64,000 nucleotides of DNA from a virus: the IMG/VR virus record IMGVR_UViG_3300002062_000002; one strand, given 5' to 3'. A program made the position numbers and the translations under genes. Positions 13,747 through 56,259 of the stretch are shown piece after piece. Within the stretch, counting starts at the first letter, position 1. Each line of letters starts with the position of its first letter. Under the pieces are notes generated by a model. It ran no database searches. It saw only the letters and a program-made list of their open reading frames with translations, and was not told the DNA's origin.

Positions 13747-13759
13747 GGTAATTCCTTAC

Positions 13760-23371: not shown

Positions 23372-23402
23372 CGGCATACTAGAGTTAGGGGGATACCCTA
23401 AC
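23372..23402 (-). terminator. Hairpin + TATGCCG element
   Basis: GTTAGGG-N5-CCCTAAC then TCTAGTATGCCG on minus, at the stop of 23398..23886. Confidence 0.6.
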
Positions 23403-23886
23403 CCATTGCACGATTTAAGATGTCTGGGACGTGTGCCTGATTACCTAAATCCGCTTTAGGCATTAGTCGATAATCTCCCATGTCTACTACCAATAACTCA
23501 TACTGTATATTGCCATCGTGTAGGCGATCAATAAATCTAGCACTATAATGATGGTTATCCCGCAGTGGTCCAAAGGCTTGTTGTAGCGCACTAACTAACT
23601 CTGTGCGCATCGTGTTTTTTGCCAGGGTGAGGACGTCAGTCGGAAACCCCACGTCACCCATTTGATAGATATGTTCATCTTCAAGTGTGACTGTAGATGC
23701 ATATGAGAGTATATTATCTAACTCCACCAATATCCAATCTCGCCAATCATATAGATCTAAAAACATACTGTTTCGAATGGAGTGGATACATAAAACCGTT
23801 TTTGTTTTTCTAATGGCCCCACCCACATCAATTAGCGCTTTTATCTTCATGACTTTACCTACATATCCAATGTGCAAGCACGACAT
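23398..23886 (-). CDS. Hypothetical protein with MGDY motif (small-gene array)
   Basis: C-terminal ELLVVDMGDYRL, echoed in the next gene. Confidence 0.65.
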   Translation of the reverse strand: MSCLHIGYVGKVMKIKALIDVGGAIRKTKTVLCIHSIRNSMFLDLYDWRDWILVELDNILSYASTVTLEDEHIYQMGDVGFPTDVLTLAKNTMRTELVSALQQAFGPLRDNHHYSARFIDRLHDGNIQYELLVVDMGDYRLMPKADLGNQAHVPDILNRAMG

Positions 23887-24355
23887 CCTCAGTCGGAAGT
23901 GCCTCGATTGATTTTAAATATTCATATAGCATTTCAGTGTAATCCCCCATCTTACGAATAATTAAAGCGTCGTATCTAACCGATACTTCCCATATGCCAA
24001 AGGGGTGGCGTTTAAAGACGGTCACCATAAGCATCTCAAACCAATCAGTTAACCAACTTGTGTGCCCCACCCACTCAATATCGGGGCGTAGACTTGCTAA
24101 ATACTCAATGCCTGCTACGCTAATTGGCCCGTTTAATTTAGAATTCATTGCAATGGCATCAGAACACGATAAATCAATAAACACTGTAATCTCGGCATCG
24201 GTTAATTCCACATACCCTTCTGCGTGTAGCATTAATCTAGTTTCACGAAGAAGGCTTTCTATGGGTAATATGATATTTCCATTTTGCTGGAATTCTGCCG
24301 CATCTCTAGCTTCTTTGTAGGCTGGATATTTTGGTGGTCTAATGTAGTCCGTCAT
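23855..24355 (-). CDS. Hypothetical protein with MGDY motif (small-gene array)
   Basis: C-terminal ALIIRKMGDYTE. Confidence 0.65.
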   Translation of the reverse strand: MTDYIRPPKYPAYKEARDAAEFQQNGNIILPIESLLRETRLMLHAEGYVELTDAEITVFIDLSCSDAIAMNSKLNGPISVAGIEYLASLRPDIEWVGHTSWLTDWFEMLMVTVFKRHPFGIWEVSVRYDALIIRKMGDYTEMLYEYLKSIEALPTEDVVLAHWICR

Positions 24356-24366
24356 GTGGATCGTCC

Positions 24367-24792
24367 TTACGATATAAGTATTAGTGTATTATCATTAAAC
24401 TTTATTTTAAATGCAGCATTCACATTTAATGTATTGTTAACCAGTGCCATTGCCTTAAAGCATAGCCTATCCAGCGTAAACTCTACCATGGGAGGTGGGC
24501 TATATACATACCGAAATAAATCGGATGGTAACGTGGCCAATGCACGATCGTTATCTGAGTAGAAATCCGCTACCTCCAATCGATTTAAAGAAACATCATT
24601 CATCCGGTCCACTATGAATATAGACGTAAGTAAATCTCTATGTGTCTGACACTCGGGATATTCTAAAAGAACATCATCAATGTATTGTTTTGATGCCCTA
24701 AGTTCTCTAGATATATCCATTATTATTTTTACACCTAACGATTTATCCATAGGCTTTCCCGTGGACGACCGGGTGAATTGATTACTATACAT
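24367..24792 (-). CDS. Hypothetical protein, first gene of the small-gene array
   Basis: SD AGGGG before ATG; promoter motifs at 24825-24851 and ~24950-24980. Confidence 0.62.
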   Translation of the reverse strand: MYSNQFTRSSTGKPMDKSLGVKIIMDISRELRASKQYIDDVLLEYPECQTHRDLLTSIFIVDRMNDVSLNRLEVADFYSDNDRALATLPSDLFRYVYSPPPMVEFTLDRLCFKAMALVNNTLNVNAAFKIKFNDNTLILIS

Positions 24793-24983
24793 GTGTACCC
24801 CTGTTAATGTTCAATGGCAGCTCCCTATATAATAGTAGAGTTGCGTAAAAAGTCCCCTATGCAATTTTAAGTGAGTAGATGATAGATTACATACCTTACC
24901 ATCAAACGTCCTCATATGGCCAATGTAGAGGGTTTTATACTAGGTGGTGTACAAATATAATATATGTCTGTATTTTTTTAATG

Positions 24984-25009
24984 CGGCATAGGCCGGGGGC
25001 GAACCCCCG
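24984..25009 (-). terminator. Hairpin + TATGCCG element closing the phuZ/ncRNA unit
   Basis: Minus strand CGGGGG-TTCG-CCCCCG then GCCTATGCCG. Confidence 0.65.
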
Positions 25010-25029
25010 TAAGTATTAAACTAACCTAC

Positions 25030-25320
25030 CGCAGTGTTTCATAGGAATCTGCTTTCCTTCTTTGTTTCAAGTAATACTTACACGATACCTATTTGGGACA
25101 CGCCCCAGGCTGGGCATTATATTCACTTGAAAGTAGGCCATCTGGCCTTTGCATTCCATTGCAATGGAATTTAGGTGACTTCCGGTTCCCTTAGATGTAT
25201 GGGCGGGAAAACGCCAAATATATAATGGGCTCTTAGTTGAACCCCCGACTGCATACATCACTACGATCGCGTAAAATTGAAGGAGGAATTCGCGGGGGAA
25301 CCGGAAGTCGTAACGCTTTT
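25030..25320 (-). ncRNA. Candidate structured ncRNA (~300 nt), family not recognised
   Basis: Nested stems of 14, 8 and 12 bp plus several hairpins; upstream promoter-like motif and downstream terminator; no credible ORF. Confidence 0.6.
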
Positions 25321-25379
25321 AAAGGATCGTTAACAAAATACCTTTTCTACATACTATATATAAAAACGTGTAAAAAAAG

Positions 25380-26375
25380 TTAGAGCACTAAACCGCCAAC
25401 GGCTGTGGATTTTCTATCGTCATCGGTAAGTACATGAGACGTATTGACGCGACGAGACTCCGTTGACTTCTTATACGCGGCCACTTCATCCTCTCGCAGT
25501 TTCATTAACTCTCGAATACCGTCTACCGAGATAATGTAATGAAGCTCTTCCGCCAGTTCACCAAAACCTTCTGCTCTGTATCCAATACAAGAATACTCGG
25601 GTAGGATGGCGGGTGGCGTTGCATCCTTATCCACTAAGATACTTGCAACCGAAATGGGGTGCTTAATGTCCATCGCCGCTTCTGTATTGTTACACACTTC
25701 CAACAATGACAATTGTGCATCTACCGTAGTGGAGTGATTATAAAATACCCAATTTGCCACATCGCGCTGATCAAGTTCATCATTTGACTCTGAGCACAAT
25801 GCAGCAAGTGTATGAATTGTAGCGTTACATACTTTGTCTACGGTGCTGCGCACGGTATTTTTTGAGTTGTGGTGATAGTTAATTACTACGGGTTTACCGC
25901 ACCCTTCACCAATAGATGCCAATGAACGCAATGTGTTAATGGTATTAATCGCTGTGATATTAGATTCAGACGACCCCACAATAACGGCGACGCATGGAAT
26001 GTCTTGCGCTAAAAGTTCACCCATAAGCAACGGTCCAATTACAGACCCTGATCCGCCGGCCGCAGAAAAGACCACTACATTAAAATCGGCGGGTTTTTCA
26101 GACATTAAAATATCACGTAGGTTCTCAGATATTTCACTCGCATTATCGCGACGCACCTTACCCGACCCTTCTTTCTTTGTCGTGGCTAGATTAAGTGCTA
26201 CGCCGGTGGATTCTTGTACGGTCCCGTAGTTAGACTTAGACGTGTCTATAAAGCTAACGTTGGCCTGGGCATAGCCTGGAGATAGTTCTGTTTCTGCAAA
26301 CGGCGTGGCTAAATTGATACCGCAGCCACCGCAGCCATATATGCGAATTTCAGATCGTGTGTGTTCGTTAGTCAT
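25380..26375 (-). CDS. phuZ: PhuZ phage tubulin
   Basis: YGCGGCGIN, FIDTS, GSGKVR, SAAGGSGS tubulin signature, DQRD T7 loop. Confidence 0.96.
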   Translation of the reverse strand: MTNEHTRSEIRIYGCGGCGINLATPFAETELSPGYAQANVSFIDTSKSNYGTVQESTGVALNLATTKKEGSGKVRRDNASEISENLRDILMSEKPADFNVVVFSAAGGSGSVIGPLLMGELLAQDIPCVAVIVGSSESNITAINTINTLRSLASIGEGCGKPVVINYHHNSKNTVRSTVDKVCNATIHTLAALCSESNDELDQRDVANWVFYNHSTTVDAQLSLLEVCNNTEAAMDIKHPISVASILVDKDATPPAILPEYSCIGYRAEGFGELAEELHYIISVDGIRELMKLREDEVAAYKKSTESRRVNTSHVLTDDDRKSTAVGGLVL

Positions 26376-26399
26376 TGGTACTTTCCTTCTTTTAATGGA

Positions 26400-27080
26400 T
26401 TATTCGGGTTGGGTTTTTTGGTAATGTGCGTAGTCTACTTTTACGTAGCTACCGTCTTTGTAAAGTGGGTATCTAAAGTGTTTACTTATAATTAAATCAT
26501 CCCTGCCTGTTTCCTTAATGGCCGTAGCAATCTTTTCATTCCACCATTCACCGGGACGAATGCAGGCGTGTGCGTTTCTACCGTCTGGTAATAATGTAAA
26601 TGCTGGGCCAAGGTGAATGGTTACATGCAGTACACTACCGGACAGGTAAATAAGTTCCTTTAGGAACCACGGTATATCGGTAGGTGGTATATGCTCAAGT
26701 ACATCGGTACACACCACAATATCACTTTGTTTATACGGGTACATACTCAGTTTTTCAATGCCAGGATCATACATGGATACGTCTAACCGACCTAAGTATC
26801 CATGTATGGACCTAAAGGGCTTATCCTCATCGGTATGTGTAGGGGGAGTATATGGGGTGTTAAAAAAGGCTTTGGGATTACCACAACCATAGTTTAATAG
26901 TGTTTCACATTGATGGTCATGTATAAGCCTTTTAATGGTTGGTGCTTCTTTGGCATATTCCCCATTTGAAAATACTGGCCCCTTAACCTTATCTTTTTTT
27001 CTTGTATCATGTAGTATCTTGTATTGGGTTAGTAATGAGGTGTATTCTTTACTAGGATTGCTTCTAGAATATAGTGTCAT
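26400..27080 (-). CDS. Class I SAM-dependent methyltransferase-like protein
   Basis: LLNYGCG (motif I, Asp replaced by Asn), YDPG, DIVVCTDVLEHIP, DGRNAH...WW. Confidence 0.8.
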   Translation of the reverse strand: MTLYSRSNPSKEYTSLLTQYKILHDTRKKDKVKGPVFSNGEYAKEAPTIKRLIHDHQCETLLNYGCGNPKAFFNTPYTPPTHTDEDKPFRSIHGYLGRLDVSMYDPGIEKLSMYPYKQSDIVVCTDVLEHIPPTDIPWFLKELIYLSGSVLHVTIHLGPAFTLLPDGRNAHACIRPGEWWNEKIATAIKETGRDDLIISKHFRYPLYKDGSYVKVDYAHYQKTQPE

Positions 27081-27212
27081 GCTATTACCTGTTAATTATT
27101 AGGTATGTGGGGTATCAATTCTATATTAATAACTGGTGATGTAAAAAAACTTTGAGTGGTCAATCTAGAGCGTATCGCCATTTACTATGACTGACACTAA
27201 ATAGCCGTTATA

Positions 27213-28034
27213 TTGGAGTACGCCATGAGCGCAGTAGAAAAAGCCATTGATGAAATTCGGTTAGCCATACCGTATGAAATATTGAATGAAGCATTTAAGA
27301 TAGATATGGGGTATGTATCGGGTAGAACTTCAGGCATTCAAACATCCCTTTCCTCCCGCATACGAGAAGACGTTATTAATAAGAAGGTATTAGTAGATTG
27401 TAATTTAATGGGCGGTAAAGAGGTAGTTGTGCCCTTAGATTCTCTTCCTAAGAAGACCTTAGAAGATAATACCTACGTCATTAAGATACCCTTAAAATTA
27501 ACAGGAGGTTTAGCTATCACCTCCACGTTGAGTGTTGCACATATAACATCGGGGCTACGGGGGCTATCTGGGGTAAATAACACCACAACGCCAGTGGACG
27601 GAGCATTTAGTAATCTAGCTAATGCTGACAGACCTTCACAGTTGACTATACCAAATTCTAAAGTAAGTTTAATAGGTGACAATACCGTGTATATACGCTT
27701 ACCGGATATTGCCGTAGGTGATCTATTTCTTCGCTGTAGGGTTAGTAACGATCCGGATATGGCCACACTACCCCCTACCAGTTGGTTGGGATTTTCCAAA
27801 CTATCAATTCTTGCAACTAAAGCTTACATTTATAATAAGTTGATTATACGTATTGATGAGGGACAGCTACAAGGCGGGTTAAACTTGGGGGCATTTAAGC
27901 AGATGGTGGATAACTATTCAGATGCATTAACGTTGTATAACGAGTACCTATCCGGGGAATGGGTGCGTGTCATGGCGCTAGGCGATGAGGTGCGTCATTC
28001 TCGCGCCATTAACTTCCAATTTGGCATGATTTAA
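27213..28034 (+). CDS. Conserved virion structural protein (probably phiKZ gp32-like)
   Basis: AIDEIRLAIPYEIL..AF, DCNLMGG, ATKAYIYN, YNEYL..EW; likely start 27225. Confidence 0.68.
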   Translation: MEYAMSAVEKAIDEIRLAIPYEILNEAFKIDMGYVSGRTSGIQTSLSSRIREDVINKKVLVDCNLMGGKEVVVPLDSLPKKTLEDNTYVIKIPLKLTGGLAITSTLSVAHITSGLRGLSGVNNTTTPVDGAFSNLANADRPSQLTIPNSKVSLIGDNTVYIRLPDIAVGDLFLRCRVSNDPDMATLPPTSWLGFSKLSILATKAYIYNKLIIRIDEGQLQGGLNLGAFKQMVDNYSDALTLYNEYLSGEWVRVMALGDEVRHSRAINFQFGMI

Positions 28035-28040
28035 GCACAT

Positions 28041-28077
28041 CGGCATAAGGGGGAAATGCGGACAATCCACATTTCCC
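28041..28077. terminator. Hairpin + TTATGCCG between convergent genes
   Basis: GGGAAATG..GGA-CAA-TCC..CATTTCCC stem; CGGCATAA at 28041-28048. Confidence 0.65.
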
Positions 28078-28085
28078 ACGTGCAC

Positions 28086-28478
28086 TTATTGTTTTATTGC
28101 CCGGTATCGAAAAAATAGCTTAAACATTAAAACCAGTTTACCATAAAGATTTTTTTCTCTGTACAGTCGTAGTAGTCTTTTATAGCTAGTTTCGCACCGG
28201 GTTTTTATTTCCAATTGTTGTAACGCCCAATCCTTTTCCATGTTATCGTCAATATTGTTTTTGACATCCAGATAAAACTCTAACGTCCGCAATTTAAATT
28301 CCATTAACAATATCTGTTCGCCCCATTGGGAGCGAGATAGTTTATTGTACTCTAAAAACAGCCGTTCTATGCAAAGCTTATCTGTGTGGTCCAGGTCTTT
28401 TTTATTTTTTCCCATTGTCTGTACTCCTACCACACATACGATAATGTCGAGTAGTAGCGTAAAAAATAACACACCCAT
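28086..28478 (-). CDS. Hypothetical protein with N-terminal membrane anchor
   Basis: MGVLFFTLLLDIIVCVVGVQ followed by a helical region. Confidence 0.55.
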   Translation of the reverse strand: MGVLFFTLLLDIIVCVVGVQTMGKNKKDLDHTDKLCIERLFLEYNKLSRSQWGEQILLMEFKLRTLEFYLDVKNNIDDNMEKDWALQQLEIKTRCETSYKRLLRLYREKNLYGKLVLMFKLFFRYRAIKQ

Positions 28479-28496
28479 TACTTATTATATAACTAA

Positions 28497-28516
28497 CACT
28501 GTATATTACTGGATGA
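28497..28516 (+). promoter_or_regulatory. Early promoter motif variant before the 28524-30784 operon
   Basis: ACACTGTATATTACTGGATG resembles the ACACATATATTATCTAAGTG motif. Confidence 0.5.
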
Positions 28517-28523
28517 GGGATTT

Positions 28524-28829
28524 ATGAATACTAAACTTGAAGAACTAGAAGCGCGTGTCGATGAGCTGGAAAAAACAGTAAAATCTATATCTAACAACTT
28601 ACTACACGTAAGGGAATTGGTACAGGAATCACTACATCTTACCGAGTCTACATCCGCTATTGTAGTTGAGCACGTCACATCACTGGATGCCAGAATGGGC
28701 TCGGTTGCCGGTATTATGGCAGAAAAAATACACGCCGATTTAGACAGTCTAAAAAAGAAAGATCTTGTTGACAACGCAGGCACCGACGATAGCATAGAAG
28801 CAGTGGATTCCGTGGCGGGTTACGTATAA
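28524..28829 (+). CDS. Small coiled-coil protein
   Basis: LEELEARVDELEKTVKSISNNL heptads; SD GAGG. Confidence 0.7.
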   Translation: MNTKLEELEARVDELEKTVKSISNNLLHVRELVQESLHLTESTSAIVVEHVTSLDARMGSVAGIMAEKIHADLDSLKKKDLVDNAGTDDSIEAVDSVAGYV

Positions 28830-28849
28830 GTCTGAAGAGGAAAGAGACA

Positions 28850-38529: not shown

Positions 38530-38731
38530 GGTCCTATTTTCTCTTTCGATTATTACGTTTTGATTTTTTGATCATTCTTTTTTTTATTTTTACTTACAGT
38601 TGGACGTGAATTACTTTTCCATACATTTAACCGGCGGGGGGAGGTGGTGGGCTCCACTGCCGATGATGTAAGGGCCATGGATGCCGCTAGTATACCCTGT
38701 AGTTGTGTGGTTGATTTTATATCGGACATGG

Positions 38732-39078: not shown

Positions 39079-39405
39079 ATGATTGTGAGTGTAAGTATAC
39101 ATGCCGGTAAACGAATATGTGTTAGGTTAAACCTTATACACAATGGAAATATAATTCTCCCACGACACTTAGATGTGTTTGATATACACACACGACACGT
39201 CCGTACCGGGGACGGGTATACACCTGGCGGTAAGCCTCCACACTACCGGGTATGGTATTTAAAAGAAATACCTCTACGCCCCCCTGTAACCGCCATAGAC
39301 GGAGACGTTCTAGTTACAGATACCGATGCTATACTTACACTACAAGATGGTACGTGGTTTCCCATAGACACCGTTAACGCCATACCGGTCGGTCGGCAGA
39401 ATTAG
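39079..39405 (+). CDS. Hypothetical protein
   Basis: 108 aa with SD AAGGA, followed by a hairpin at 39402-39421. Confidence 0.55.
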   Translation: MIVSVSIHAGKRICVRLNLIHNGNIILPRHLDVFDIHTRHVRTGDGYTPGGKPPHYRVWYLKEIPLRPPVTAIDGDVLVTDTDAILTLQDGTWFPIDTVNAIPVGRQN

Positions 39406-39426
39406 GGGGTATTCCCCCTAATGTCA

Positions 39427-40362: not shown

Positions 40363-40387
40363 GGTCGTAATTCCTTTTATTTTATAG

Positions 40388-41017: not shown

Positions 41018-41047
41018 TGTCCTTTTTTCCTTTAGGTGTAATAATTG

Positions 41048-42154: not shown

Positions 42155-42169
42155 TGTAGATACCAGTCA

Positions 42170-43255: not shown

Positions 43256-43266
43256 TTGGTCTGTCC

Positions 43267-43680
43267 TTAAAAAAAAAAGTGATATATTTTTGGTGGAGTT
43301 AATTCACTTACTTCAGATACCTTAGCCCGTTCCGTTTCACTTGCGATCTCAGCGTGACACGCTTCCATTGTTGAAGGTTGTCTAGATAGCCGGGCGGTGG
43401 TTTCTGGAGTAACTGCCTTTAGAGTAATGTACTCTAGAGCCTGTATGACTTGACAGAAGTCATCTACTTTATCGGGGTAGCGTAAGTGATTACCTACAAG
43501 CCGCCCCTCCACAATATGCATGCGTAAAGTGGGCTGAATATTATTGGTCCAAAATATCACCTCAATGGTGTTTGTTTTTAATGTATCTTTAAACAAAGCC
43601 CGCCACACTTCATTGAGTGGCATCATGGTTTCTATTTCTTCTTTTGAGCCGTCACATTTTTCTACCTTAACCGTAAACAT
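43267..43680 (-). CDS. Hypothetical protein
   Basis: 137-aa ORF ending in a T10 run. Confidence 0.55.
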   Translation of the reverse strand: MFTVKVEKCDGSKEEIETMMPLNEVWRALFKDTLKTNTIEVIFWTNNIQPTLRMHIVEGRLVGNHLRYPDKVDDFCQVIQALEYITLKAVTPETTARLSRQPSTMEACHAEIASETERAKVSEVSELTPPKIYHFFF

Positions 43681-44126
43681 AGTTTTTTTCCTTTTAGATA
43701 TCGTTTTATTCTAACAAACCAACTGCATTTAATGCAATCAATTTTTCGTCGCTCGTATTCCAATTCCTGCAATATGCATAGGGGAGAATCGCCTTTAAGG
43801 TATCTCATGTCAATTGGCATGGGATGTGGTCCAATGTAGTGAGCGTTTTGGCTATTCGCTATTATTGGTTGTGTTGTCTCCATTTTTTCATTTGGGCGAA
43901 AGAATGAAAAATGTGTCTTTAGTACGCTGGCAGATGGGACCTCGGTCCACCAAACTGTCGTCGTGCTAGTAAACTTCCCCACTTTACGATAACTGCGCTT
44001 TTCCATCCAATGGGTTATTTCTTTCTGTAGGCGTATACCCTCCTTTACATGTTGTATATTGGATGTTAATATCTCACACCGGTTTTCTACTATTGTATTC
44101 ATGTTGGTCCTTTTATGGTCATACAT
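43662..44126 (-). CDS. Hypothetical protein, first gene after an early-type promoter
   Basis: Likely start MNTIV with SD AAAAGGA; motif CTCACACCTATATTATTTTGATG at 44150-44172. Confidence 0.55.
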   Translation of the reverse strand: MYDHKRTNMNTIVENRCEILTSNIQHVKEGIRLQKEITHWMEKRSYRKVGKFTSTTTVWWTEVPSASVLKTHFSFFRPNEKMETTQPIIANSQNAHYIGPHPMPIDMRYLKGDSPLCILQELEYERRKIDCIKCSWFVRIKRYLKGKKLCLRLR

Positions 44127-44195
44127 TATATAATTTTAATTATGTCGTGCATCAAAATAATATAGGTGTGAGTATTTTTTATATGAAACCAATGA

Positions 44196-46370: not shown

Positions 46371-46413
46371 GTCCTCCCACGGTTGATTTCATAGAATACG
46401 TATTATTCAGAAT

Positions 46414-46437
46414 AAAAAAGAGGGTCGCCCCTCTTTT
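46414..46437 (-). terminator. Intrinsic terminator
   Basis: AAAAGAGGG-GCGA-CCCTCTTTTTT on minus. Confidence 0.75.
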
Positions 46438-46447
46438 AATGGTAGTG

Positions 46448-48070: not shown

Positions 48071-48088
48071 GAGATGGCTCCTTAAATG

Positions 48089-50581
48089 TTATAGTTGTAT
48101 AGATAAAAACCCGGTCATGTCTACCCGACCCTGTAGGTAGGTAATGGATATTCTATCGAGTAATGAATATAGCTTTTGTGAAACTGGAATTTCAATATCT
48201 TGTAAATGGGGACGTATTATAAGTACGCCACTAACATACCCACTACGGTCATCATAATTACAAATATCATATTCCAACAATTCTTTATAATTATCAACGA
48301 TAAGCGCAATGACACTATCCGTTAATCTGCCCTGTGGTAATGTCAACAATCCAGATTGAACATCACTCAAAATACGTGCACATGTAATGCTGTACATTTC
48401 ATATCTATAATTAATTGCGCTAACGACGGTGGGGCGGGGAGATAGATCTAACGCGTGTGTCGTTAAATACCCTTCAATGCGTCTATCGACTTCCATTGCC
48501 TTACTTCGTAGTACACGTTCTACATCACTGGGTACGTTTAACTTTGTTAACCTGGGACGCTTAAAGGAAAGAGAGTACGGCTTGCCGTTAGGTAAGTTTC
48601 CTTGATCGTCCCCACGCGCTTCTTCGTGTAGGAACGTAGTAAGGGGCGATGTGATTGCGCCATCTACCACGGCACGTTGAAGTTTATCTGCCCGTAAACT
48701 AAATGTGTCATCGTACGATATATAACCATGCTCCGTCCAGCCATATAGATCGGGAGTTCCCCACTGCACCACTCCATCTTCTGTTTCCTCTGGAAACCCC
48801 TCAGCCAATACATCTACTACGACAGTGCCATCTTCACCTAAAATATCCTTTTTAGATATCCATATAACTTGTTTGTCGATGCTGTAATCAATGCCCTGTA
48901 CTAACTCGCGGTTATTGACACGTACGACAACATCTTTATACGGCAATTCAATAGTACCATTATCGTCAATTAAAGGCACGGTATAAATACCTCTATCTTC
49001 CGTTATTGTAAATTGGCGATGTAATCCGTTTCCATCCACTCGAATGGCCCAGTAGTTTAATGGGTTTTGATAATCGTGTACCATGGTGTCGCCATCGGTG
49101 GTCCACGTCACCGCATGGGTAATGTCAATCCAATCCTGGGCCGTTTTATTGCGAATATAAAATCGCACTTCCGCTGTTGTTTTGGGTATAGATGCAACGT
49201 TATAATAGTCCATTGCGTTAGGCTGAAGCTTATTTTGATAAAACTCCACCGCGGTAGTTTCGGTGTCTACATCGAACGTTGGATTACCGTTTATGGCATT
49301 TACGGTTATGCCTTCGCCATATTGAACAACACTACCGTCTCGATATACTTCTGGCACGGACACTTGCGGTGAGGGTGAAAAAGTCATATGGGGGGCCAGG
49401 TAATACGCAATGGCATTATAGCCATAGGCGTTATATACATCCAATGTAGCGGATGCGTCGATAATGGGACGACGCATAATACTAACGTACTTTGAATTTT
49501 CTAAATGGGCGAACGACCACTCTTTAATGGTAGGTACCCTAGCGGTTAATATTAATTGTCTAAAGTTATCCGGTAAACGCGCCAGCTCGTGTAGCTTACT
49601 GGACTCAAAAATCAATGGGCGATCGTACCCCGACTTTCTAGCAATTACCGCAATAAAGCAATTCCCTGGGCCTAACTCTAATCGAATGTGGTTAATCTGA
49701 TCTATCGATATGGAGTAGGTGGACTCTGTCAGCATGCGTACATTGTTAGGTTGTAGTCTATGGAACAATAAACCCGTAGCTAAACTGCCGTCGGCGTTTA
49801 AACGACATACTCTAAATTCAATATCGTCATGGTATTGAATTGTATCCATGCTACCAATATCAATGACATATTTTCTACTATTATCTTTACCCGATAACCT
49901 ATAGTTTAAACTGTCCACGTCCACATATGTTGTCGTGTCAATTGAGTCATCTCGCATAATGGTTATGGGCGTACCGATAGTTAGGGTGGAGGGTATAATG
50001 ACATTCACCTCGACTCCCGATTCAAACATTCGAATGGGCACCCCCGCAGCTTTAAGGTTCATGGCTTGTGTGAGTATACCTAATACAGCTTGCATATTTA
50101 ACCCATCGAACGTAACACCTCGCACCCAAACCTCATTGGAGTTCAATGAACGGACACTTGAGAAAAACGCGTTGGTGTAATGCGAGAGATACATATCGCG
50201 TTTACCAGTGTTACCCCGTATAGCCGCCACCACTCGTGCATTTGGGAGGCGAATTAAAAAAACATCATGGGGATGTACCATATATCCCTGTCTATCAAAC
50301 ACCGTCAATAATGTTTTTGTGGCGTTGGTAATTACTTCAAGACTTTGCCATTCATTAAATAGGGCGTCCACTCCCCATTGACTAATTTGATATTGCCCTA
50401 TAAAAAACAAATCGTACGTTTCTTTGGTGGGGGTAGAAAGCTCACTATAAGCAAACTTAATGCGCTGCTGAACCTCTCCTCGTACCCTTCTGAAAAAGGA
50501 GAGTTGAATTATGCCAGGCTGGTCTTGTCCGGGGTTACACCAAACGTTCTCTACGGCGTGCTGCAATAACTGATCTGACAT
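48089..50581 (-). CDS. Virion structural protein (phiKZ gp27-like)
   Basis: 830 aa; NVWCNPGQD, AYGYNA, ELLEYD; synteny. Confidence 0.72.
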   Translation of the reverse strand: MSDQLLQHAVENVWCNPGQDQPGIIQLSFFRRVRGEVQQRIKFAYSELSTPTKETYDLFFIGQYQISQWGVDALFNEWQSLEVITNATKTLLTVFDRQGYMVHPHDVFLIRLPNARVVAAIRGNTGKRDMYLSHYTNAFFSSVRSLNSNEVWVRGVTFDGLNMQAVLGILTQAMNLKAAGVPIRMFESGVEVNVIIPSTLTIGTPITIMRDDSIDTTTYVDVDSLNYRLSGKDNSRKYVIDIGSMDTIQYHDDIEFRVCRLNADGSLATGLLFHRLQPNNVRMLTESTYSISIDQINHIRLELGPGNCFIAVIARKSGYDRPLIFESSKLHELARLPDNFRQLILTARVPTIKEWSFAHLENSKYVSIMRRPIIDASATLDVYNAYGYNAIAYYLAPHMTFSPSPQVSVPEVYRDGSVVQYGEGITVNAINGNPTFDVDTETTAVEFYQNKLQPNAMDYYNVASIPKTTAEVRFYIRNKTAQDWIDITHAVTWTTDGDTMVHDYQNPLNYWAIRVDGNGLHRQFTITEDRGIYTVPLIDDNGTIELPYKDVVVRVNNRELVQGIDYSIDKQVIWISKKDILGEDGTVVVDVLAEGFPEETEDGVVQWGTPDLYGWTEHGYISYDDTFSLRADKLQRAVVDGAITSPLTTFLHEEARGDDQGNLPNGKPYSLSFKRPRLTKLNVPSDVERVLRSKAMEVDRRIEGYLTTHALDLSPRPTVVSAINYRYEMYSITCARILSDVQSGLLTLPQGRLTDSVIALIVDNYKELLEYDICNYDDRSGYVSGVLIIRPHLQDIEIPVSQKLYSLLDRISITYLQGRVDMTGFLSIQL

Positions 50582-50600
50582 ATCAATCTCCTATGTACTA

Positions 50601-51515
50601 CTACTGTTTATGGGTAATTACGGCATGGAAAGTGCGCGCAAACATTTGGGCCTCGTCGCCACGTTTACCCAAACTCTCAATTTTACGCCCTAAGGGAGTT
50701 TTACTTAAACCCCGTTCGGTAGTGGCGGCCGAGACAATACTCATCCACCCCGGAGGATATTCTATTGAACTGGCTACAATTTCAGCAGGGGCAACGGAGC
50801 CACCTCTAAATATAGATGACATAATGCCAAAGAACAACGCATTATCAAACTTTTTCAACCGGGGGTTATCCATGGTGTCCCCGGCTAGAAAATGTGTAAA
50901 TTCACTAACCGAAGAAAATGAAATAGGTTTGGGGAACCACTCCATGATCATAGGAACCGTTATTCGGGTTGCCTTAGCCGTGGCACTTACTCGACGTAGC
51001 CACTCTCGCTCAGTTAACTCCACGTCGGCGGGGTTAAATTGAGAAATAAAAAATAATCCAGCGGCTACCGCCACCTTAGCTTGTACTTCGGGCATTAATG
51101 CTAACCGGTGAGTAATGGATTCTGATATTATTGCTGTAAATACACGCATAGGAAAATCGGATATACTATATAGCGTATCCTTATTCTCATCGCTAAGTCG
51201 CCAATAACTAGCCGACATTGCACGGTTAATTGTCAGTTTATACTCTGAATTTTTAGTAATGATAAAGTTCCCCGTTTCATCGGAGTATTTACCCAGGGCC
51301 CGTACATCGGCGACCATATAATCATCCATTAACACCGGGTGGTGGAAAACCGGACAATCACTTAACTTGCTTAATAGTAGAAGGGTGCGATCGGATGCGT
51401 CACCCAATTCTCGTACGTGTCCAGAGGCTAGAGATATACGCAACTCAGTCAGTATTTTATCTAAGTCGTATGAACGAAACGCGGTGGTTTCATAGGGGGT
51501 TTCTAAGGGATACAT
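50601..51515 (-). CDS. Virion structural protein (phiKZ gp28-like)
   Basis: PYETTA..YD, FHHP, VADVRA, IEYPP.W; divergent from sheath. Confidence 0.7.
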   Translation of the reverse strand: MYPLETPYETTAFRSYDLDKILTELRISLASGHVRELGDASDRTLLLLSKLSDCPVFHHPVLMDDYMVADVRALGKYSDETGNFIITKNSEYKLTINRAMSASYWRLSDENKDTLYSISDFPMRVFTAIISESITHRLALMPEVQAKVAVAAGLFFISQFNPADVELTEREWLRRVSATAKATRITVPMIMEWFPKPISFSSVSEFTHFLAGDTMDNPRLKKFDNALFFGIMSSIFRGGSVAPAEIVASSIEYPPGWMSIVSAATTERGLSKTPLGRKIESLGKRGDEAQMFARTFHAVITHKQ

Positions 51516-51677
51516 TATACTTTTACTCCAGATGGATTGGGTTTAGTCATAAGATGACGACAGGTATTTATTTTTTACTAGGGATCAAGAGCTATACATA
51601 TGACGGTTTGCGGCAGCTAGCGGCTTTCATACCGGGTTTTTATTTCAATTTTTTTGCAAAAAAATGGAGTTACATAA

Positions 51678-53753
51678 ATGAATGTTTTAAGTGGTGCGCC
51701 TGTAGTTAATCTACTAGGCATTGAAGACCGTTCTATACGAACGCCCCTGCCGGAAGGCGAAGCTTTACCCATGCATTTGCCATGGTTATTATTAAATACA
51801 CAGCGTGGACCAGAAGAAACACAATTGGTTGCAGGTGGAGACACTGCCCGTATGTATGGTGCAGAGTCATTTGACGAACAAGGCCCCTATACCAACCATG
51901 CAACAATGATGCATAATGTCATTGCTGGTGCGGGTAACATTACGATGATTCGTCGTTATATCTCAGACGCCCATAAAAAGGCATCTCTTCGTTTAGCTAT
52001 TGAGGTCGTAGACAGCGACATCACCGTGTATCAGCGCGATTCGCAGGGCTTATTTATTCGAAATGCATCTGGTAGTAAAGTACCGGTTATTGAAGGTGGC
52101 GGTCCAATTGGTCCTAACTTAACCGTGCCCGGTAAAAAGGTTCGTTGGGTCATTTTAGATCCATCGTTGGATTTTGGTACGGGCTCAGCAACGGTTGGTG
52201 ATTTAGCAGGCAGCGATACCAGTATTTCAAACGTCTACCCTATATTGGATATTGAAGCCAGTCACTTTGGTAAATATGGTAACAACGTAGGTCTGTCGTT
52301 ATCGTGTCCTTCTACGCTAGGCAATGCGCCAGTAAATGAAGAAGTGGTTTATGACAATCTTGCTCGTTTGTTTCGACTCAAGTTTGTAGAACGTGAAGAT
52401 GCACAATCTGCAGGTCGCGTACAGAAAAGTTTATTTGGCGGACAAGACGTTGAATTTACGTTTAAAAAAGATACCGTCAATAAAAGCACTGGCGTAAATT
52501 TACATATGGATCGCGTTGTTCCTAAGTCATACGCGGATTTAGATTCAAAGGGGTTTGCTCCTATCTATGGTCCAATGGATAACTACCATGTCTATGATGA
52601 TAATCTAGAAACCGTTTTAGAATTATTGGCTACTGATGAATTCACAGTGGAAAATGGGTACACCCCGGACGATGTCGATATTCATCTTATTGACCCCATC
52701 TCGGCCGTAGATGTTACTGGTGCACCGTACCGCAATATTGAAGTAGTTGGTCCTGAAGAAGGTGGCATTTTATTAGGTGATGATATTTTCCACTACGCTA
52801 AAGGCGGTAGTGATGGTGATCAGTCGTTAACGGGCTTTGATACGTGGGTTGGTGAGACCTTTAACGGCTTTGAAAACGATACGGTTGACGCGTTAATGGA
52901 CTCGGCACAATTTCCATTCAGTGTATTTTATGATTCTGGTTTTACAATGGATACAAAGTTAGCTATGCTAACACCCATTGGTTTACGTAAAGACGTATAC
53001 ACCGTTCTATCAACACAAGACGTTACTCAGCCTGCGAATGATAACCTGGCTGAAATGTCAATTGCCATTGCATTGCGTGCGCGTGCGCGTCTGTTTCCAG
53101 AATCTGTACATTATGGCACCGCCACAACTCGTGCACTTATTGTTGGTCACTCGGGTACGTTATTGAATAGTAACTATACCGGACAACTTCCCCTTACCAT
53201 CGACTTTGCAAGTAAGAGTGCACAGTACATGGGTGCGGCTGAAGGCTCTATGAAAGAAGAGTTTTCAATGGACACGTCACCTGTTAATAATGTTACAATG
53301 TTCCGTGACATTAATAACACATACAAAAGTCCACGTGTTCGTCAACGCGATTGGGCCGCTGGCATTATTTGGGTTCAACGTAAAGATCGCAACGATTTCT
53401 TTTATCCACAATATCAAACGGTATACGATAATGATACGTCCATTATTAACTCGGCGTTGAATATGTTTATTGGCGTTGAATTAGAAAAAGTATGTGAGCG
53501 CACTTGGCGTAATCTTACGGGCGACTCAAAGTTATCCGATGCCCAGTTTTTTGAAAAGTCAAATGCGTTAATTGAACGCTATACACGTGGACGTTTTGAT
53601 GGTCGAGTAACTATTGTTGCCGAGACCTTTAAATCTGAAGCAGATAAACTGCGCGGTTATAGCTGGTCGTGTAATTTACATATGTACGGTAACAACATGC
53701 GTACAGTGGGCACTTATACAGTAACCGCTAACCGCGCTGAAGATTTGGTTTAA
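51678..53753 (+). CDS. Tail sheath protein (phiKZ gp29-like)
   Basis: 691 aa; N-terminal GIEDRS, FYDSGFT..TK, FPES..YGT...R, W...TG, RF.GR. Confidence 0.92.
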   Translation: MNVLSGAPVVNLLGIEDRSIRTPLPEGEALPMHLPWLLLNTQRGPEETQLVAGGDTARMYGAESFDEQGPYTNHATMMHNVIAGAGNITMIRRYISDAHKKASLRLAIEVVDSDITVYQRDSQGLFIRNASGSKVPVIEGGGPIGPNLTVPGKKVRWVILDPSLDFGTGSATVGDLAGSDTSISNVYPILDIEASHFGKYGNNVGLSLSCPSTLGNAPVNEEVVYDNLARLFRLKFVEREDAQSAGRVQKSLFGGQDVEFTFKKDTVNKSTGVNLHMDRVVPKSYADLDSKGFAPIYGPMDNYHVYDDNLETVLELLATDEFTVENGYTPDDVDIHLIDPISAVDVTGAPYRNIEVVGPEEGGILLGDDIFHYAKGGSDGDQSLTGFDTWVGETFNGFENDTVDALMDSAQFPFSVFYDSGFTMDTKLAMLTPIGLRKDVYTVLSTQDVTQPANDNLAEMSIAIALRARARLFPESVHYGTATTRALIVGHSGTLLNSNYTGQLPLTIDFASKSAQYMGAAEGSMKEEFSMDTSPVNNVTMFRDINNTYKSPRVRQRDWAAGIIWVQRKDRNDFFYPQYQTVYDNDTSIINSALNMFIGVELEKVCERTWRNLTGDSKLSDAQFFEKSNALIERYTRGRFDGRVTIVAETFKSEADKLRGYSWSCNLHMYGNNMRTVGTYTVTANRAEDLV

Positions 53754-53771
53754 TACGGGAGTTAAATAACC

Positions 53772-54644
53772 ATGGCAAGATTAAAAAATACTCTTGTGCC
53801 AACCACTACGGATTCTAACGCCTTATATGCGGGTGTTAGTGGCGCACAGGCAGATGTACGGTACAGTGGGCAGCACGGTTTTACCACTGACCCTAAATCG
53901 TTATCGGGTAACAGTAACTACGTAAAGCGTAATCTCATTGCGGTGTTATTAGAGTCGCCCTTAGGCTTTAATGACCTACCTAACCCAGAAGCGCTACACG
54001 GTACACTGAAAGCCCTTGTTGAGCGTCACGCTAAGCAAATCACGGGGTTAACGTCAACGTTGTCTGTAGAGTTTGTTGCGCAGCCTGTGGGCGGTGCGGG
54101 TGAAGAGCAAGAAGATCCTTCAAACGTGGTACGCGCACGTTCTACCCCAACCTTTATATGGCCAGAAAAAGAAGGGTCTGTAATTCGTAAGTTTGTGGAT
54201 TACTGGATCTTGAATTTACTAGGTGACCCTGAAACAAAGGTCCCTCGTGTGATTCAACATACCGGCGGTGACGTTGACGATATGTTAATGGATTACCGTG
54301 GCATGACGGTTATATTCTTTGAGCCTGACGTAACACACACCAAAGTTATCTCATCGTGGATGGGTACCGGCATGATGCCTCGTGTAGGTGGAACACATGA
54401 GGGTCAGCGTGACCTTACGGCTGCGGGTGAGGGTGTTGAGCATAGCATTGAATTCACGGGTGTCTTTGACGTGGGTGAAGGCGTTCAACAAACAGCACAA
54501 AAGTTGTTAGACGAAATGAACTTAACTTCAGTTAATGTTAATTTACGTTCAGCTATTGTGGAAGCGGTATCTGCGGATGTTGCCAATGCAGGGGACGGTA
54601 ACGGCGATTTAATTGAAAACTCAGTGAATGATTATATTGCGTAA
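53772..54644 (+). CDS. Tail tube protein (phiKZ gp30-like)
   Basis: 290 aa after sheath; YVKRNLIAVLLE.P, DPETKVP, IFFEPD, MMPR.GG. Confidence 0.9.
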   Translation: MARLKNTLVPTTTDSNALYAGVSGAQADVRYSGQHGFTTDPKSLSGNSNYVKRNLIAVLLESPLGFNDLPNPEALHGTLKALVERHAKQITGLTSTLSVEFVAQPVGGAGEEQEDPSNVVRARSTPTFIWPEKEGSVIRKFVDYWILNLLGDPETKVPRVIQHTGGDVDDMLMDYRGMTVIFFEPDVTHTKVISSWMGTGMMPRVGGTHEGQRDLTAAGEGVEHSIEFTGVFDVGEGVQQTAQKLLDEMNLTSVNVNLRSAIVEAVSADVANAGDGNGDLIENSVNDYIA

Positions 54645-54656
54645 TTACTAATTTAA

Positions 54657-55025
54657 CTATCGGGGGGAAACTCCCGATTTATGCCGACGAGACAAAAAAA
54701 AACTACGTTCAACGGTCATTGCCCACTTATCTTTACCTAACTTACAACTCAAGTTAAACGACTCTAATTCTTTATCACGGCCAAATGAGTCAACGGCGTA
54801 ATCGTGAGTTGCATGAATAAGCGCTTGGTGAGCTTGATTGGCTACCGCCTGAGACTTGGTGAACGTGGCGTAATCAATGTCGTGTGGTTTACCTAATTCA
54901 GTGATGACATCTTGCATGACTTTAGCATCAATTTCATCATTGGTTTTTACACCCGTAGTTTTAAGGTGCTTTGCAATTGACTTTGATGCTTCTAGTACTT
55001 CTTTTGATATTTTTGATTCTGACAT
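54657..55025 (-). CDS. Hypothetical protein, 3' end uncertain
   Basis: SD AAGGA; frame runs through a T9 tract and the convergent terminator. Confidence 0.58.
   Translation of the reverse strand: MSESKISKEVLEASKSIAKHLKTTGVKTNDEIDAKVMQDVITELGKPHDIDYATFTKSQAVANQAHQALIHATHDYAVDSFGRDKELESFNLSCKLGKDKWAMTVERSFFLSRRHKSGVSPR
54659..54686 (+). terminator. Hairpin + TTATGCCG element after tail tube
   Basis: ATCGGGGG-GAAA-CTCCCGAT then TTATGCCG. Confidence 0.68.
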
Positions 55026-55107
55026 GATGGTTCCTTTAATTTTATATTATGGGTTGGTTTTTGGTGGTACGGGTTAATTCGTTAATGGTGTACAAACTTG
55101 TAATTAA

Positions 55108-55443
55108 CTACCCTGCCCGGATAGTTAATTTTTCAAGATTATACGTTTTACTTAGGTCAACGCTACTATACTTATCCCATATTCTACTAAAGAGATAAAA
55201 TAGATCATCGGCAGATTCTAACCCGACTTTAATTGTAATTAAATCCGGATCGGTTGTTCTATCTAAAAAACGTTGGAAGCAAACATCTGCATTGGATAGG
55301 TATTTATCAAATGAACTGATCCAACATAACATTCTATACTCTACACTGCCCGTTGTAGGTTGACTAATGACAGGTTTACGATACCATGACTTAAATTCAT
55401 CAGTATCGTGCAATGTATCAATATCCCTATTGCCATACATCAT
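55108..55443 (-). CDS. Hypothetical protein
   Basis: 111 aa with SD AGGGG. Confidence 0.55.
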   Translation of the reverse strand: MMYGNRDIDTLHDTDEFKSWYRKPVISQPTTGSVEYRMLCWISSFDKYLSNADVCFQRFLDRTTDPDLITIKVGLESADDLFYLFSRIWDKYSSVDLSKTYNLEKLTIRAG

Positions 55444-55453
55444 AGCGTTGCCC

Positions 55454-56080
55454 CTACGCTGTTTGTTGTTGATTTTTTTCTAGGAGGTAATTACCTAGAA
55501 ACGACTCATATAAACTTGACTTAACCATAACTTCGGGATCAAAGAAATTTCCGTGAGTCATGAACTCAAGCATGTCGTCAATGACCATCGACGGATCACG
55601 TGGTTTACTGGTAGGATTGGCAGCCCACACTCTCCCCAAGAGTGTACGTCTATCCTGCTTCAGTGTGGCCAATTCAAGCGTTTGCATAGCCGCCTTACTT
55701 ACTTCTGGGAACACTCCCTCTGTGGCGGTTAGTGCTACCGGCTCAATAACGATATCTTTAAGGTCGTGAAACGTATTAACTATAGAACGCCCCGCGTCCG
55801 GAATGCCGTGTATAAACCCCGCGGTAAACGTCCAATTAAATTGTCTAGATTTAAAAGCGTTTACCAATCCCGCTACTACCATAGAATTCTCTTTTCTTGC
55901 CAATGGATACGTGGCAAGCACTTCATGTACACCCAGTAACGTAGGAGCTGCCATAGGCGTACCCCCCACGATAGCCAATTTTTCAGCGTGCACATTTAGA
56001 CATGCGGTGGTGACATTGCGAATAAGCGATGAAGTTGGATTTGTTATTGTTGGCCTACGGTTTTGAAATATCGTATTCAT
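55454..56080 (-). CDS. Hypothetical protein after an early-type promoter
   Basis: 208 aa; SD GGAG; motif TTTTAGACATATATTACATTGG at ~56189-56210. Confidence 0.62.
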   Translation of the reverse strand: MNTIFQNRRPTITNPTSSLIRNVTTACLNVHAEKLAIVGGTPMAAPTLLGVHEVLATYPLARKENSMVVAGLVNAFKSRQFNWTFTAGFIHGIPDAGRSIVNTFHDLKDIVIEPVALTATEGVFPEVSKAAMQTLELATLKQDRRTLLGRVWAANPTSKPRDPSMVIDDMLEFMTHGNFFDPEVMVKSSLYESFLGNYLLEKNQQQTA

Positions 56081-56233
56081 GCGTGTACTGCTCCATTTGG
56101 TCGTATCATATTCAAGTGGTCAACTTGAACCTTTTAGGGTTTTCTATTATAAATGTACTATGCATGTATTTTTTATACCGCTATAGTACCAATGTAATAT
56201 ATGTCTAAAAATGGTTTATATGGATTACATACT

Positions 56234-56259
56234 CGACATAAGTGACGGGTTTCCCCGTC
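56234..56259 (-). terminator. Hairpin + TTATGTCG element after protease
   Basis: Minus strand GACGGG-GAAA-CCCGTC-AC-TTATGTCG. Confidence 0.68.

What the first reader, a model, noticed from the sequence alone, without database searches (positions are those of the whole stretch)
23372..56259. Gene-end hairpins followed by TATGYCG rather than poly-U
Seen: GC-rich hairpins followed within 0-6 nt by TATGCCG/TATGTCG at 23372, 24984, 28041, 30804, 34502 and 34532 (both sides of one hairpin), 54679 and 56234, with a TAATGTCA variant at ~39419. All are at gene ends and lack a U-tract, whereas 13760 and 46414 are ordinary terminators. Inference: a termination signal specific to the phage RNAPs, or a processing/protein-binding site.
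Basis: partly seen in the sequence, partly recalled or inferred. Interest (0 to 1): 0.65.

Follow-up and report, generated by a model that had tools for sequence, protein, structure and literature searches.

The report
Jumbo-phage terminators with TATG box
The GC-rich hairpins followed by TATGYCG are this nucleus-forming jumbo phage's version of a transcription stop signal already mapped by experiment in phages phiKZ and 201phi2-1, so the pattern is real and family-wide but largely known.

Summary
All eight named sites have a GC-rich hairpin followed 0-5 nt later by TATGCCG or TATGTCG. The bare heptamer is not enriched (21 found, 18.5 expected). Its position after hairpins is: 7 of 34 perfect-hairpin sides against 0.08 expected, P about 2e-12.

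All sites follow a co-oriented gene end, and five of eight lie between convergent genes. This fits a terminator, not a promoter.

The element matches the published phiKZ terminator motif, a hairpin followed by TTATKYYGT (Putzeys 2024), and motif A of 201phi2-1. I placed published phiKZ 3' ends on the phiKZ genome: 27 motif terminators end -3 to +2 from the G of TATG. None of 34 hairpin-TATG sites carries a mapped start site.

The same enrichment occurs in a 63%-identical IMG/VR relative, Eowyn and RP12. It is weaker in Goslar and a Vibrio phage, and absent from the T4 and AR9 controls.

The "ordinary" terminators at 13769 and 46416 begin TTAT and look like the K=T end of the same continuum.

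Specificity for phage RNA polymerases is untested: 201phi2-1 terminators work in uninfected host cells. Earlier reports of this scan reached the same reading on Goslar-like phages.

Verdict: a new member of a known kind, low-to-moderate interest.

The parts
23384..23402 (-). terminator hairpin after gene 23398-23886(-); overlaps its stop codon
   Evidence: perfect 7-bp stem; sequence checked
23372..23378 (-). TATGCCG box, 5 nt after the stem; tandem junction
24994..25009 (-). terminator hairpin CGGGGG-TTCG-CCCCCG, ending the long 3' region after gene 25380-26375(-)
24984..24990 (-). TATGCCG box, 3 nt after the stem; followed by an early-promoter-like CAGACATATATTA at 24958-24970(-)
28051..28077 (-). 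12-bp hairpin (with G-U pairs) after gene 28086-28478(-); convergent junction
   Evidence: RNAfold -18.5 kcal/mol
28041..28047 (-). TATGCCG box, 3 nt after the stem
30786..30803 (.). bidirectional hairpin between convergent genes 29726-30784(+) and 30818-31414(-)
30804..30810 (+). TATGCCG box directly after the stem (plus-strand side)
30777..30783 (-). weaker TATGTGT box on the minus-strand side of the same hairpin
31367..31412 (-). variant: hairpin 31377-31412 followed by TTTTATACCG (G to A in the box) after gene 31419-31961(-)
34510..34529 (.). bidirectional hairpin between convergent genes 33272-34501(+) and 34532-35002(-)
34502..34508 (-). TATGCCG box, minus-strand side
34533..34539 (+). 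TATGTCG box, plus-strand side; overlaps the stop codon of the minus-strand gene
39401..39426 (+). hairpin 39401-39422 with degenerate box TAATGTCA (39419-39426) at a convergent junction; membership uncertain
54659..54678 (+). terminator hairpin after gene 53772-54644(+), the gene next to the tail sheath gene
   Evidence: orthologous junction in G001 keeps a different hairpin plus TTATGCCGT
54680..54686 (+). TATGCCG box, 1 nt after the stem; convergent junction
56244..56259 (-). terminator hairpin GACGGG-GAAA-CCCGTC after gene 56265-57020(-)
   Evidence: G001 ortholog has compensated stem TAGCGGG/CCCGCTA
56234..56240 (-). TATGTCG box, 3 nt after the stem; early-promoter-like TAGACATATATTA follows at 56195-56207(-)
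13759..13788 (-). hairpin with TATTTTTTTG tail: U-rich (K=T) version
46408..46437 (-). hairpin with TTATTCTG tail (K=T version); G001 ortholog has TTATGCCGT
57791..57820 (-). hairpin with TATTCTG tail after gene 57831-59207(-)

Best explanation
These are hairpin-dependent transcription terminators of a divergent chimallivirus (nucleus-forming jumbo phage). They belong to the conserved class described in phiKZ and 201phi2-1: a GC-rich stem-loop, often with a UUCG or GNRA loop, a 0-5 nt spacer, then (T)TATG-Y-C-G(-T) in place of a long U-tract.

Shown or measured:
- The motif is tied to hairpins at gene ends.
- It is conserved across chimallivirus lineages.
- In phiKZ, published 3' ends fall inside the box, from 3 nt before to 2 nt after the G.

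Inferred mechanism: the nascent hairpin forms while the polymerase sits on the weak U-U-A-U hybrid and is slowed at one of two pyrimidine-then-G steps (UAU|G and YC|G). This matches the Y(-1)G(+1) rule for elemental pausing of multisubunit RNAPs, which I cite from memory. The transcript is released 3-8 nt after the stem. The conserved bases just past the mapped end (C-G-T) suggest that part of the signal is read on DNA, or as the incoming nucleotide, rather than in the released RNA. Two-sided copies (CATA-hairpin-TATG) terminate convergent transcription in both directions.
For: In the window:
- TATGYYG follows perfect hairpins 7 times against 0.08 expected (P = 2e-12).
- 8 of 8 sites follow a co-oriented gene end, 5 of 8 are at convergent junctions and none at divergent ones.
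- The stems all differ in sequence.

At orthologous junctions in the relative G001 (35-72% aa identity), the hairpin is replaced or compensated while the box is kept, at sites 54680, 56234, 46408 and 30804.

Literature:
- 61 phiKZ terminators from ONT-cappable-seq share a hairpin followed by TTATKYYGT (PMC10914365).
- 201phi2-1 motif A (n = 59) resembles it (PMC11512511).

My re-analysis of published phiKZ tables:
- 27 motif terminators have their 3' end at -3 to +2 from the G and 2-8 nt (26 of 27 at 3-8) after the stem.
- Of 34 hairpin-TATG sites in 19.8-118 kb, 14 have a same-strand 3' end within 4 nt and 0 have a start site within 4 nt.

Survey, observed against expected: G001 28/0.48, phiKZ 32/0.81, Eowyn 56/1.4, RP12 73/2.2, Goslar 8/0.8, Vibrio MS32 7/0.65. 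Controls: T4 1/0.21, AR9 0/0.14. The logos agree on T-TATG-Y-Y-G-T.
Against: - No RNA data exist for this phage, so termination here is inferred from homology of the signal and from gene context.
- ONT-cappable-seq 3' ends are accurate only to a few nt and could be trimmed or processed ends. The claim that C-G-T lies beyond the RNA end is therefore soft.
- The pause mechanism is inference only.
- TATG is also the phiKZ nvRNAP late-promoter core, with G as +1 (PMC4666361). A dual role at tandem junctions is not excluded.
- In phiKZ some tandem-junction hairpins carry TATG only on the antisense side. Part of this may come from my crude ORF calls or from K=T boxes that I did not count.
Confidence: 0.85

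Rival explanations
1. The TATG after the hairpin is a late promoter of the non-virion RNAP. Each site would then be a stop-and-restart module, or a hairpin-assisted promoter, rather than a terminator tail.
For: The phiKZ nvRNAP needs TATG, with G as the start site (PMC4666361). It binds those four bases as single-stranded non-template DNA (PMC12809450). Three window sites (23372, 24984, 56234) are followed by a co-oriented gene.
Against: - Five of eight window sites face the 3' end of an opposing gene, and the motif is almost never at divergent junctions in any genome.
- In phiKZ, 0 of 34 hairpin-TATG sites has a mapped start site within 4 nt, while 14 have a mapped 3' end. Separate promoters lie 5-60 nt further downstream at 7 sites.
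- Distances to the next start codon are irregular: 1, about 190 and about 150 nt.
- Published late promoters show no conservation after TATG, whereas the box continues as YCG(T).
Confidence: 0.05
2. The hairpin plus box is an RNA-level site for a nuclease or an RNA-binding protein. Its role would be 3'-end processing or stabilisation, or a tag for handling mRNA leaving the phage nucleus. The observed 3' ends would then be processed ends, not termination points.
For: - The box is far more sequence-specific than a U-tract and is restricted to chimalliviruses.
- Mapped 3' ends cannot distinguish termination from cleavage or trimming.
Against: - The most conserved later positions (G at +3, T at +4) lie beyond most mapped 3' ends in phiKZ, so they would be missing from the RNA product.
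- 201phi2-1 terminators lower downstream reporter expression in uninfected host cells, where no phage protein is present.
- The 3-8 nt stem-to-end distance is that of intrinsic termination.
Confidence: 0.07
3. It is a chance pattern, or copies of a small mobile palindromic repeat, with no role in transcription.
For: The bare heptamer is not enriched in the window (21 against 18.5).
Against: - The positional association has P about 1e-12 in the window and 1e-40 to 1e-84 in relatives.
- The stems are all different, so these are not copies of one element.
- Orientation tracks gene ends.
Confidence: 0.01

Closest known systems
Conserved intrinsic terminator motif of Pseudomonas phage phiKZ (Putzeys et al. 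2024, Microlife, PMC10914365)
   Same: GC-rich stem-loop followed after 1-3 nt by TTAT-K-Y-Y-G-T. Found at gene ends, with bidirectional copies between convergent genes. Both are chimalliviruses. The window logo T-TATG-Y-C-G is a subset of the published consensus.
   Different: The stems are not the CCYCCCC/GGGRRGG type of phiKZ; each is different. The box here is more strictly TATG-C/T-C-G, often with no T before it. The phage is very distant (tail sheath <60% aa identity to every phage-database record, best 42%). No 3'-end data exist here.
Terminator motif A of Pseudomonas phage 201phi2-1 (PMC11512511)
   Same: The authors describe it as strongly resembling the phiKZ motif, across 59 mapped terminators.
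   Different: I could not see its logo or table because no supplement is held. Several 201phi2-1 terminators were shown to work with host RNAP in a reporter trap; nothing comparable exists here.
Canonical bacterial intrinsic terminator (GC hairpin plus U-tract)
   Same: Hairpin at the gene end, release a few nt after the stem, and an A/U-rich first 3-4 nt of the tail. Sites 13769 and 46416 have true T-runs.
   Different: The eight sites have at most 3 U and a G/C-containing conserved box, and they fail a hairpin-plus-T-run scan. The box is absent after hairpins in T4 and AR9.
phiKZ nvRNAP late promoter core TATG (Yakunina 2015, PMC4666361; structure PMC12809450)
   Same: Same four bases. In promoters the G is +1; in terminators the mapped 3' end sits at the G, from 3 nt before to 2 nt after.
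   Different: Different context (after a hairpin, at gene ends, often facing an opposing gene). No mapped start sites at such boxes in phiKZ. The box has extra conserved bases that promoters lack.
Sequence-specific pause/termination signals of other RNAPs: T7 RNAP class II signal, and the elemental pause consensus G(-10)Y(-1)G(+1) of bacterial RNAP (both from my own knowledge, not checked here)
   Same: A short specific sequence, rather than a U-run, slows or stops the polymerase. The box contains two pyrimidine-then-G steps.
   Different: The T7 class II signal works without a hairpin and on a single-subunit enzyme. The pause consensus alone does not terminate. The link is an inference.

Membership tests
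phiKZ-type conserved chimallivirus terminator (hairpin + TTATKYYGT) | GC-rich stem-loop immediately upstream of the box | tested here: met
   Perfect 6-9 bp stems at 7 sites and a 12-bp stem with G-U pairs at 28051-28077.
phiKZ-type conserved chimallivirus terminator (hairpin + TTATKYYGT) | Tail matching (T)TAT-K-Y-Y-G(-T) within a few nt of the stem | tested here: met
   All eight sites read TATG-[CT]-C-G, with a spacer of 0-5 nt. The window logo matches those of phiKZ, Eowyn, RP12 and G001.
phiKZ-type conserved chimallivirus terminator (hairpin + TTATKYYGT) | Located downstream of a co-oriented gene end, with bidirectional copies between convergent genes | tested here: met
   8 of 8 follow a co-oriented gene end. 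Two hairpins (30786 and 34510) carry a box on both sides.
phiKZ-type conserved chimallivirus terminator (hairpin + TTATKYYGT) | Host genome is a chimallivirus with its own multisubunit RNAPs | tested here: met
   PHROG hits to the nuclear shell protein (16457-18430), four RNAP beta-type pieces and the tail sheath. Tail sheath relatives are all chimalliviruses.
phiKZ-type conserved chimallivirus terminator (hairpin + TTATKYYGT) | Transcript 3' ends map to the box | not testable with these tools
   No RNA data exist for this phage. In phiKZ, 27 published ends fall -3 to +2 from the G.
Canonical intrinsic terminator | U-tract (at least 5 T in 8 nt) directly after the stem | tested here: not met
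   The eight sites have at most 3 T before the G and are missed by the T-run scan. Sites 13769 and 46416 meet the criterion.
nvRNAP late promoter (TATG, G = +1) | Lies upstream of a co-oriented gene and gives a primary 5' end at the G | tested here: not met
   5 of 8 sites face an opposing gene end. In phiKZ, 0 of 34 hairpin-TATG sites has a mapped start site within 4 nt. 5' ends in this phage are not testable.

The most novel reading that the evidence does not exclude
The terminator box is a promoter mimic. When the elongating chimallivirus RNAP brings its active site to the G of TATG, the single-stranded non-template TATG docks into the same beta-lobe pocket that reads the late promoter (GP123 in phiKZ). 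This stalls the enzyme just long enough for the upstream hairpin to release the transcript. One DNA-reading pocket would then mark both starts and stops, and would replace the U-tract in a compartment that excludes host termination factors. Points in favour: the coincidence of G = +1 in promoters with the 3' end at or near the G (-3 to +2) in terminators, the conserved bases beyond the RNA end, and the absence of the box from AR9, whose nvRNAP reads a different promoter on the template strand. Point against: in phiKZ, the first mapped 3' ends downstream of early promoters, which would be vRNAP transcripts, also lie at TTAT-type terminators (one TATG box, one K=T U-rich tail).
Probability: 0.15. 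Interest if true: 0.7.

Novelty: new member of a known kind. Interest (0 to 1): 0.25.

Why it matters
For annotation, the box gives a reliable way to call terminators and operon ends in chimalliviruses, where ordinary hairpin-plus-U-run predictors fail.

For biology, the box persists across lineages whose tail sheath proteins share only 30-40% identity and whose genomes range from 37 to 53% GC, yet it is absent from T4 and AR9. This points to a termination requirement peculiar to this family's RNA polymerases or to the phage nucleus. That mechanism has not been worked out, and neither transcriptome paper links the box to the TATG promoter core.

The core finding itself is already published for phiKZ and 201phi2-1. 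Earlier reports of this scan reached the same reading several times on Goslar-like phages.

Tried and rejected
- No whole genome is held for the window, so a genome-wide test was run instead on the 64-kb window and on the 207.7-kb IMG/VR relative.
- Megablast of 33000-37000 against the phage collection found nothing. The nearest isolates are only 42% identical in the tail sheath.
- Rfam (gathering threshold) and tRNA scans of the window were empty.
- Ceyssens 2014 (PMC4178840) is not held.
- Supplements of the two journal papers are not held. The bioRxiv supplement of Putzeys et al. was used instead, and only for T001-T076 and P008-P066.
- The promoter reading was rejected on gene context and phiKZ start-site data.
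- The mobile-repeat reading was rejected because the stems are all different.
- A loose scan with TAT[GT]YY[GT] plus any fold gives many intragenic noise hits and was not used for counts.
- TATG is not clearly enriched at a fixed distance upstream of start codons, and divergent spacers are uninformative, so a local late-promoter consensus could not be derived.
Full report
**What the window is.** PHROG scans identify a chimallivirus: a nuclear shell protein (16457-18430, minus strand), four RNA polymerase beta-type pieces, a DNA polymerase, a terminase and a tail sheath (51678-53753). It is a distant one. Megablast against the phage collection finds nothing, and the best tail sheath match among isolates is 42% identical (Serratia/Klebsiella phages KpHz_2 and Eowyn). 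One IMG/VR contig is closer, at 63%: UViG 3300020375_000001, 207,748 bp with terminal repeats, called G001 here. No whole genome is held for the window.

**Checking the observation.** TATGYCG occurs 21 times on both strands, against 18.5 +/- 4.1 in shuffles, so the heptamer as such is not enriched. Eight of the 21 copies lie 0-5 nt after a GC-rich hairpin, and all eight are at gene ends. Among 17 perfect hairpins (34 sides), 7 sides carry TATGYYG starting within 0-7 nt, against 0.08 expected (P = 2e-12). The eighth site, 28041, has a 12-bp stem with G-U pairs. The stems are all different, so these are not copies of one repeat. A standard hairpin-plus-T-run scan of 22-42 kb shows no enrichment (18 against 14.5) and misses every one of these sites. 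The description "no U-tract" is therefore fair.

**Context in the window.** With a simple non-overlapping ORF map (92% coverage), every oriented site follows the end of a co-oriented gene. Three are at tandem junctions (23372, 24984, 56234). Five are at convergent junctions (28041, 30804, 34502, 34533, 54680), where nothing on that strand lies downstream to be transcribed. Every real convergent junction in the window has such a hairpin, and two hairpins (30786-30803 and 34510-34529) carry a box on both sides. This is terminator geometry, not promoter geometry.

**Further members and the 'ordinary' terminators.**
- Hairpin 31377-31412 (minus strand) is followed by TTTTATACCG, a G-to-A variant.
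- Hairpin 57799-57820 is followed by TATTCTG.
- Hairpin 46416-46437 is followed by TTATTCTG.
- Hairpin 13769-13788 is followed by TATTTTTTTG.

At the junction orthologous to 46416, G001 has a different hairpin followed by TTATGCCGT. The U-rich and TATG forms are therefore interchangeable versions of one element, as the K (G or T) in the published consensus already implies.

**What is known.** Putzeys et al. 2024 mapped 133 phiKZ termination regions by ONT-cappable-seq. [quoted passage not shown] The 201phi2-1 study found five terminator motifs. The main one (n = 59) strongly resembles the phiKZ motif (PMC11512511). Neither paper mentions TATG as the nvRNAP late-promoter core. That core is TATG with the G as +1 (PMC4666361), and it is bound as single-stranded non-template DNA under the beta-lobe of GP123 (PMC12809450).

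**Re-analysis of published phiKZ data.** I fetched the phiKZ genome. I then placed the published positions from the bioRxiv supplement on it: terminators T001-T076 and start sites P008-P066. The coordinates agree with NC_004629.1. Results:
- For 27 terminators with a perfect hairpin and a TATK tail, the 3' end lies at -3 (4), -1 (6), 0 (2), +1 (7) or +2 (8) relative to the fourth base of the box. That is 2-8 nt after the stem (26 of 27 at 3-8 nt).
- In the interval covered by both lists, 14 of 34 hairpin-TATG sites have a same-strand 3' end within 4 nt.
- None has a start site within 4 nt.
- Seven have a separate start site 5-60 nt further on.
- Most sites without a mapped end are the antisense sides of two-sided hairpins.

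In the one relative where both kinds of end are mapped, the box marks stops, not starts. From the same tables, early-promoter transcripts (for example P012) and late-promoter transcripts (for example P063, P049, P036) both have a TTAT-type terminator as the next downstream 3' end. This suggests both phage polymerases stop there. It is an inference from nearest neighbours, not a measurement.

**Survey of other phages.** I ran the same hairpin-side test on whole genomes. Counts are TATGYYG observed against expected.

| Genome | Observed | Expected |
|---|---|---|
| G001 (IMG/VR relative) | 28 | 0.48 |
| phiKZ | 32 | 0.81 |
| Eowyn | 56 | 1.4 |
| Ralstonia RP12 | 73 | 2.2 |
| Goslar | 8 | 0.8 |
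| Vibrio MS32 (prefers TTATT) | 7 | 0.65 |
| T4 (control, host RNAP) | 1 | 0.21 |
| AR9 (control, non-chimallivirus jumbo phage with its own msRNAPs) | 0 | 0.14 |

An unbiased 5-mer ranking of hairpin tails puts TTATG, TATGC and TGCCG at the top in the chimalliviruses. Logos anchored on TATK agree on T-TATG-Y-Y-G-T across genomes of 37-53% GC.

At orthologous junctions between the window and G001, the stem sequence is replaced or compensated while the box is kept. Examples are GACGGG/CCCGTC against TAGCGGG/CCCGCTA after the 56265-57020 gene, and unrelated stems after the gene next to the tail sheath gene.

**How it most likely works.**
- Shown: the box is part of a hairpin-linked, gene-end signal conserved in this virus family. 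In phiKZ, RNA ends inside it.
- Inferred: this is intrinsic termination in which a short weak hybrid (U-U-A-U) and a sequence-specified slow step replace the long U-tract.
- The box contains two pyrimidine-then-G steps (UAU|G and YC|G). The phiKZ ends cluster just before each G (offsets -1 and +1/+2). This fits the Y(-1)G(+1) rule of elemental pausing in multisubunit RNAPs, which I cite from my own knowledge.
- The conserved G at +3 and T at +4 lie beyond most mapped ends, which hints at a DNA-level or incoming-nucleotide contribution. ONT end positions are good only to a few nucleotides, and ends may be trimmed, so this point is soft.

A more novel version is that the non-template TATG docks into the promoter-reading pocket and stalls the elongating enzyme. 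The geometry is consistent with this: the G is +1 in promoters and the 3' end sits at or near the G in terminators. Nothing tests it.

The box is family-specific, yet eight 201phi2-1 terminators terminate in uninfected P. chlororaphis.

**Rivals.**
- A restart promoter is disfavoured by the convergent contexts and by the phiKZ start-site data.
- An RNA processing or binding site cannot be excluded. It fits poorly with conserved positions beyond the RNA end and with activity in uninfected cells.
- Chance or a mobile repeat is excluded.

**Verdict.** The termination reading is right, but it is already published for phiKZ and 201phi2-1. Earlier follow-ups of this scan reached the same reading on Goslar-like phages.
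- A very divergent new member.
- Evidence that the box is conserved across several chimallivirus genera and absent from the T4 and AR9 controls.
- The position of published phiKZ 3' ends relative to the box.
- The absence of mapped start sites at hairpin-linked boxes.
- The view that 'ordinary' and TATG terminators form one continuum.

Noticed in passing
window 5315-5327, 10006-10018, 16481-16493 (all minus strand); also 24958-24970 and 56195-56207 (minus strand): GACACATATATTA occurs three times exactly (0.65 expected). CAGACATATATTA and TAGACATATATTA lie 14-27 nt downstream of the terminator boxes at 24984 and 56234. The core resembles the published phiKZ early-promoter core (...AGATCTATATTAC...), so these look like vRNAP early promoters and terminator-then-early-promoter modules. 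The 56195 copy is conserved in G001.
   Followed up: partly
window 23368-23378, 30804-30814, 31363-31373: The box extends to an identical 11-mer, TATGCCGAATG, at two unrelated sites (23372 minus strand, 30804 plus strand), with TATACCGAATG at a third (31373 minus strand). The shared AATG is not a start codon at the convergent site. Unexplained beyond the consensus.
   Followed up: no
window 23341-23370 (minus strand): The ORF 22948-23370 begins 1 nt after the terminator box with no ribosome-binding site. An in-frame ATG nine codons downstream (23343) is preceded by AGGA and is the more likely start.
   Followed up: partly
window 54657-55025 (minus strand) against hairpin 54659-54678: The last codons of this 122-aa minus-strand ORF overlap the terminator hairpin and box of the opposing gene. 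Either the coding end and the terminator are shared, or the ORF is shorter or not real.
   Followed up: no
Eowyn NC_070650.1 around 31180-31199 and 191440-191459 (loci L034, L042): There are face-to-face terminators. Two separate hairpins have TTTATGCCGT boxes that abut on opposite strands, forming a perfect palindrome between convergent genes.
   Followed up: partly
window 25010-25379 (minus strand): About 370 nt with no ORF longer than 64 aa separate the stop of gene 25380-26375 from terminator 24994-25009. Another first-stage note proposes a structured ncRNA here. If so, the TATG-box terminator defines its 3' end.
   Followed up: no
Vibrio phage MS32 (MK308677.1) and Goslar (NC_048170.1), whole genomes: The terminator tail differs by lineage. 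MS32 hairpins are followed mainly by TTATT/TATTT rather than TTATG. Goslar shows only weak TATG enrichment under my strict perfect-stem criterion.
   Followed up: partly
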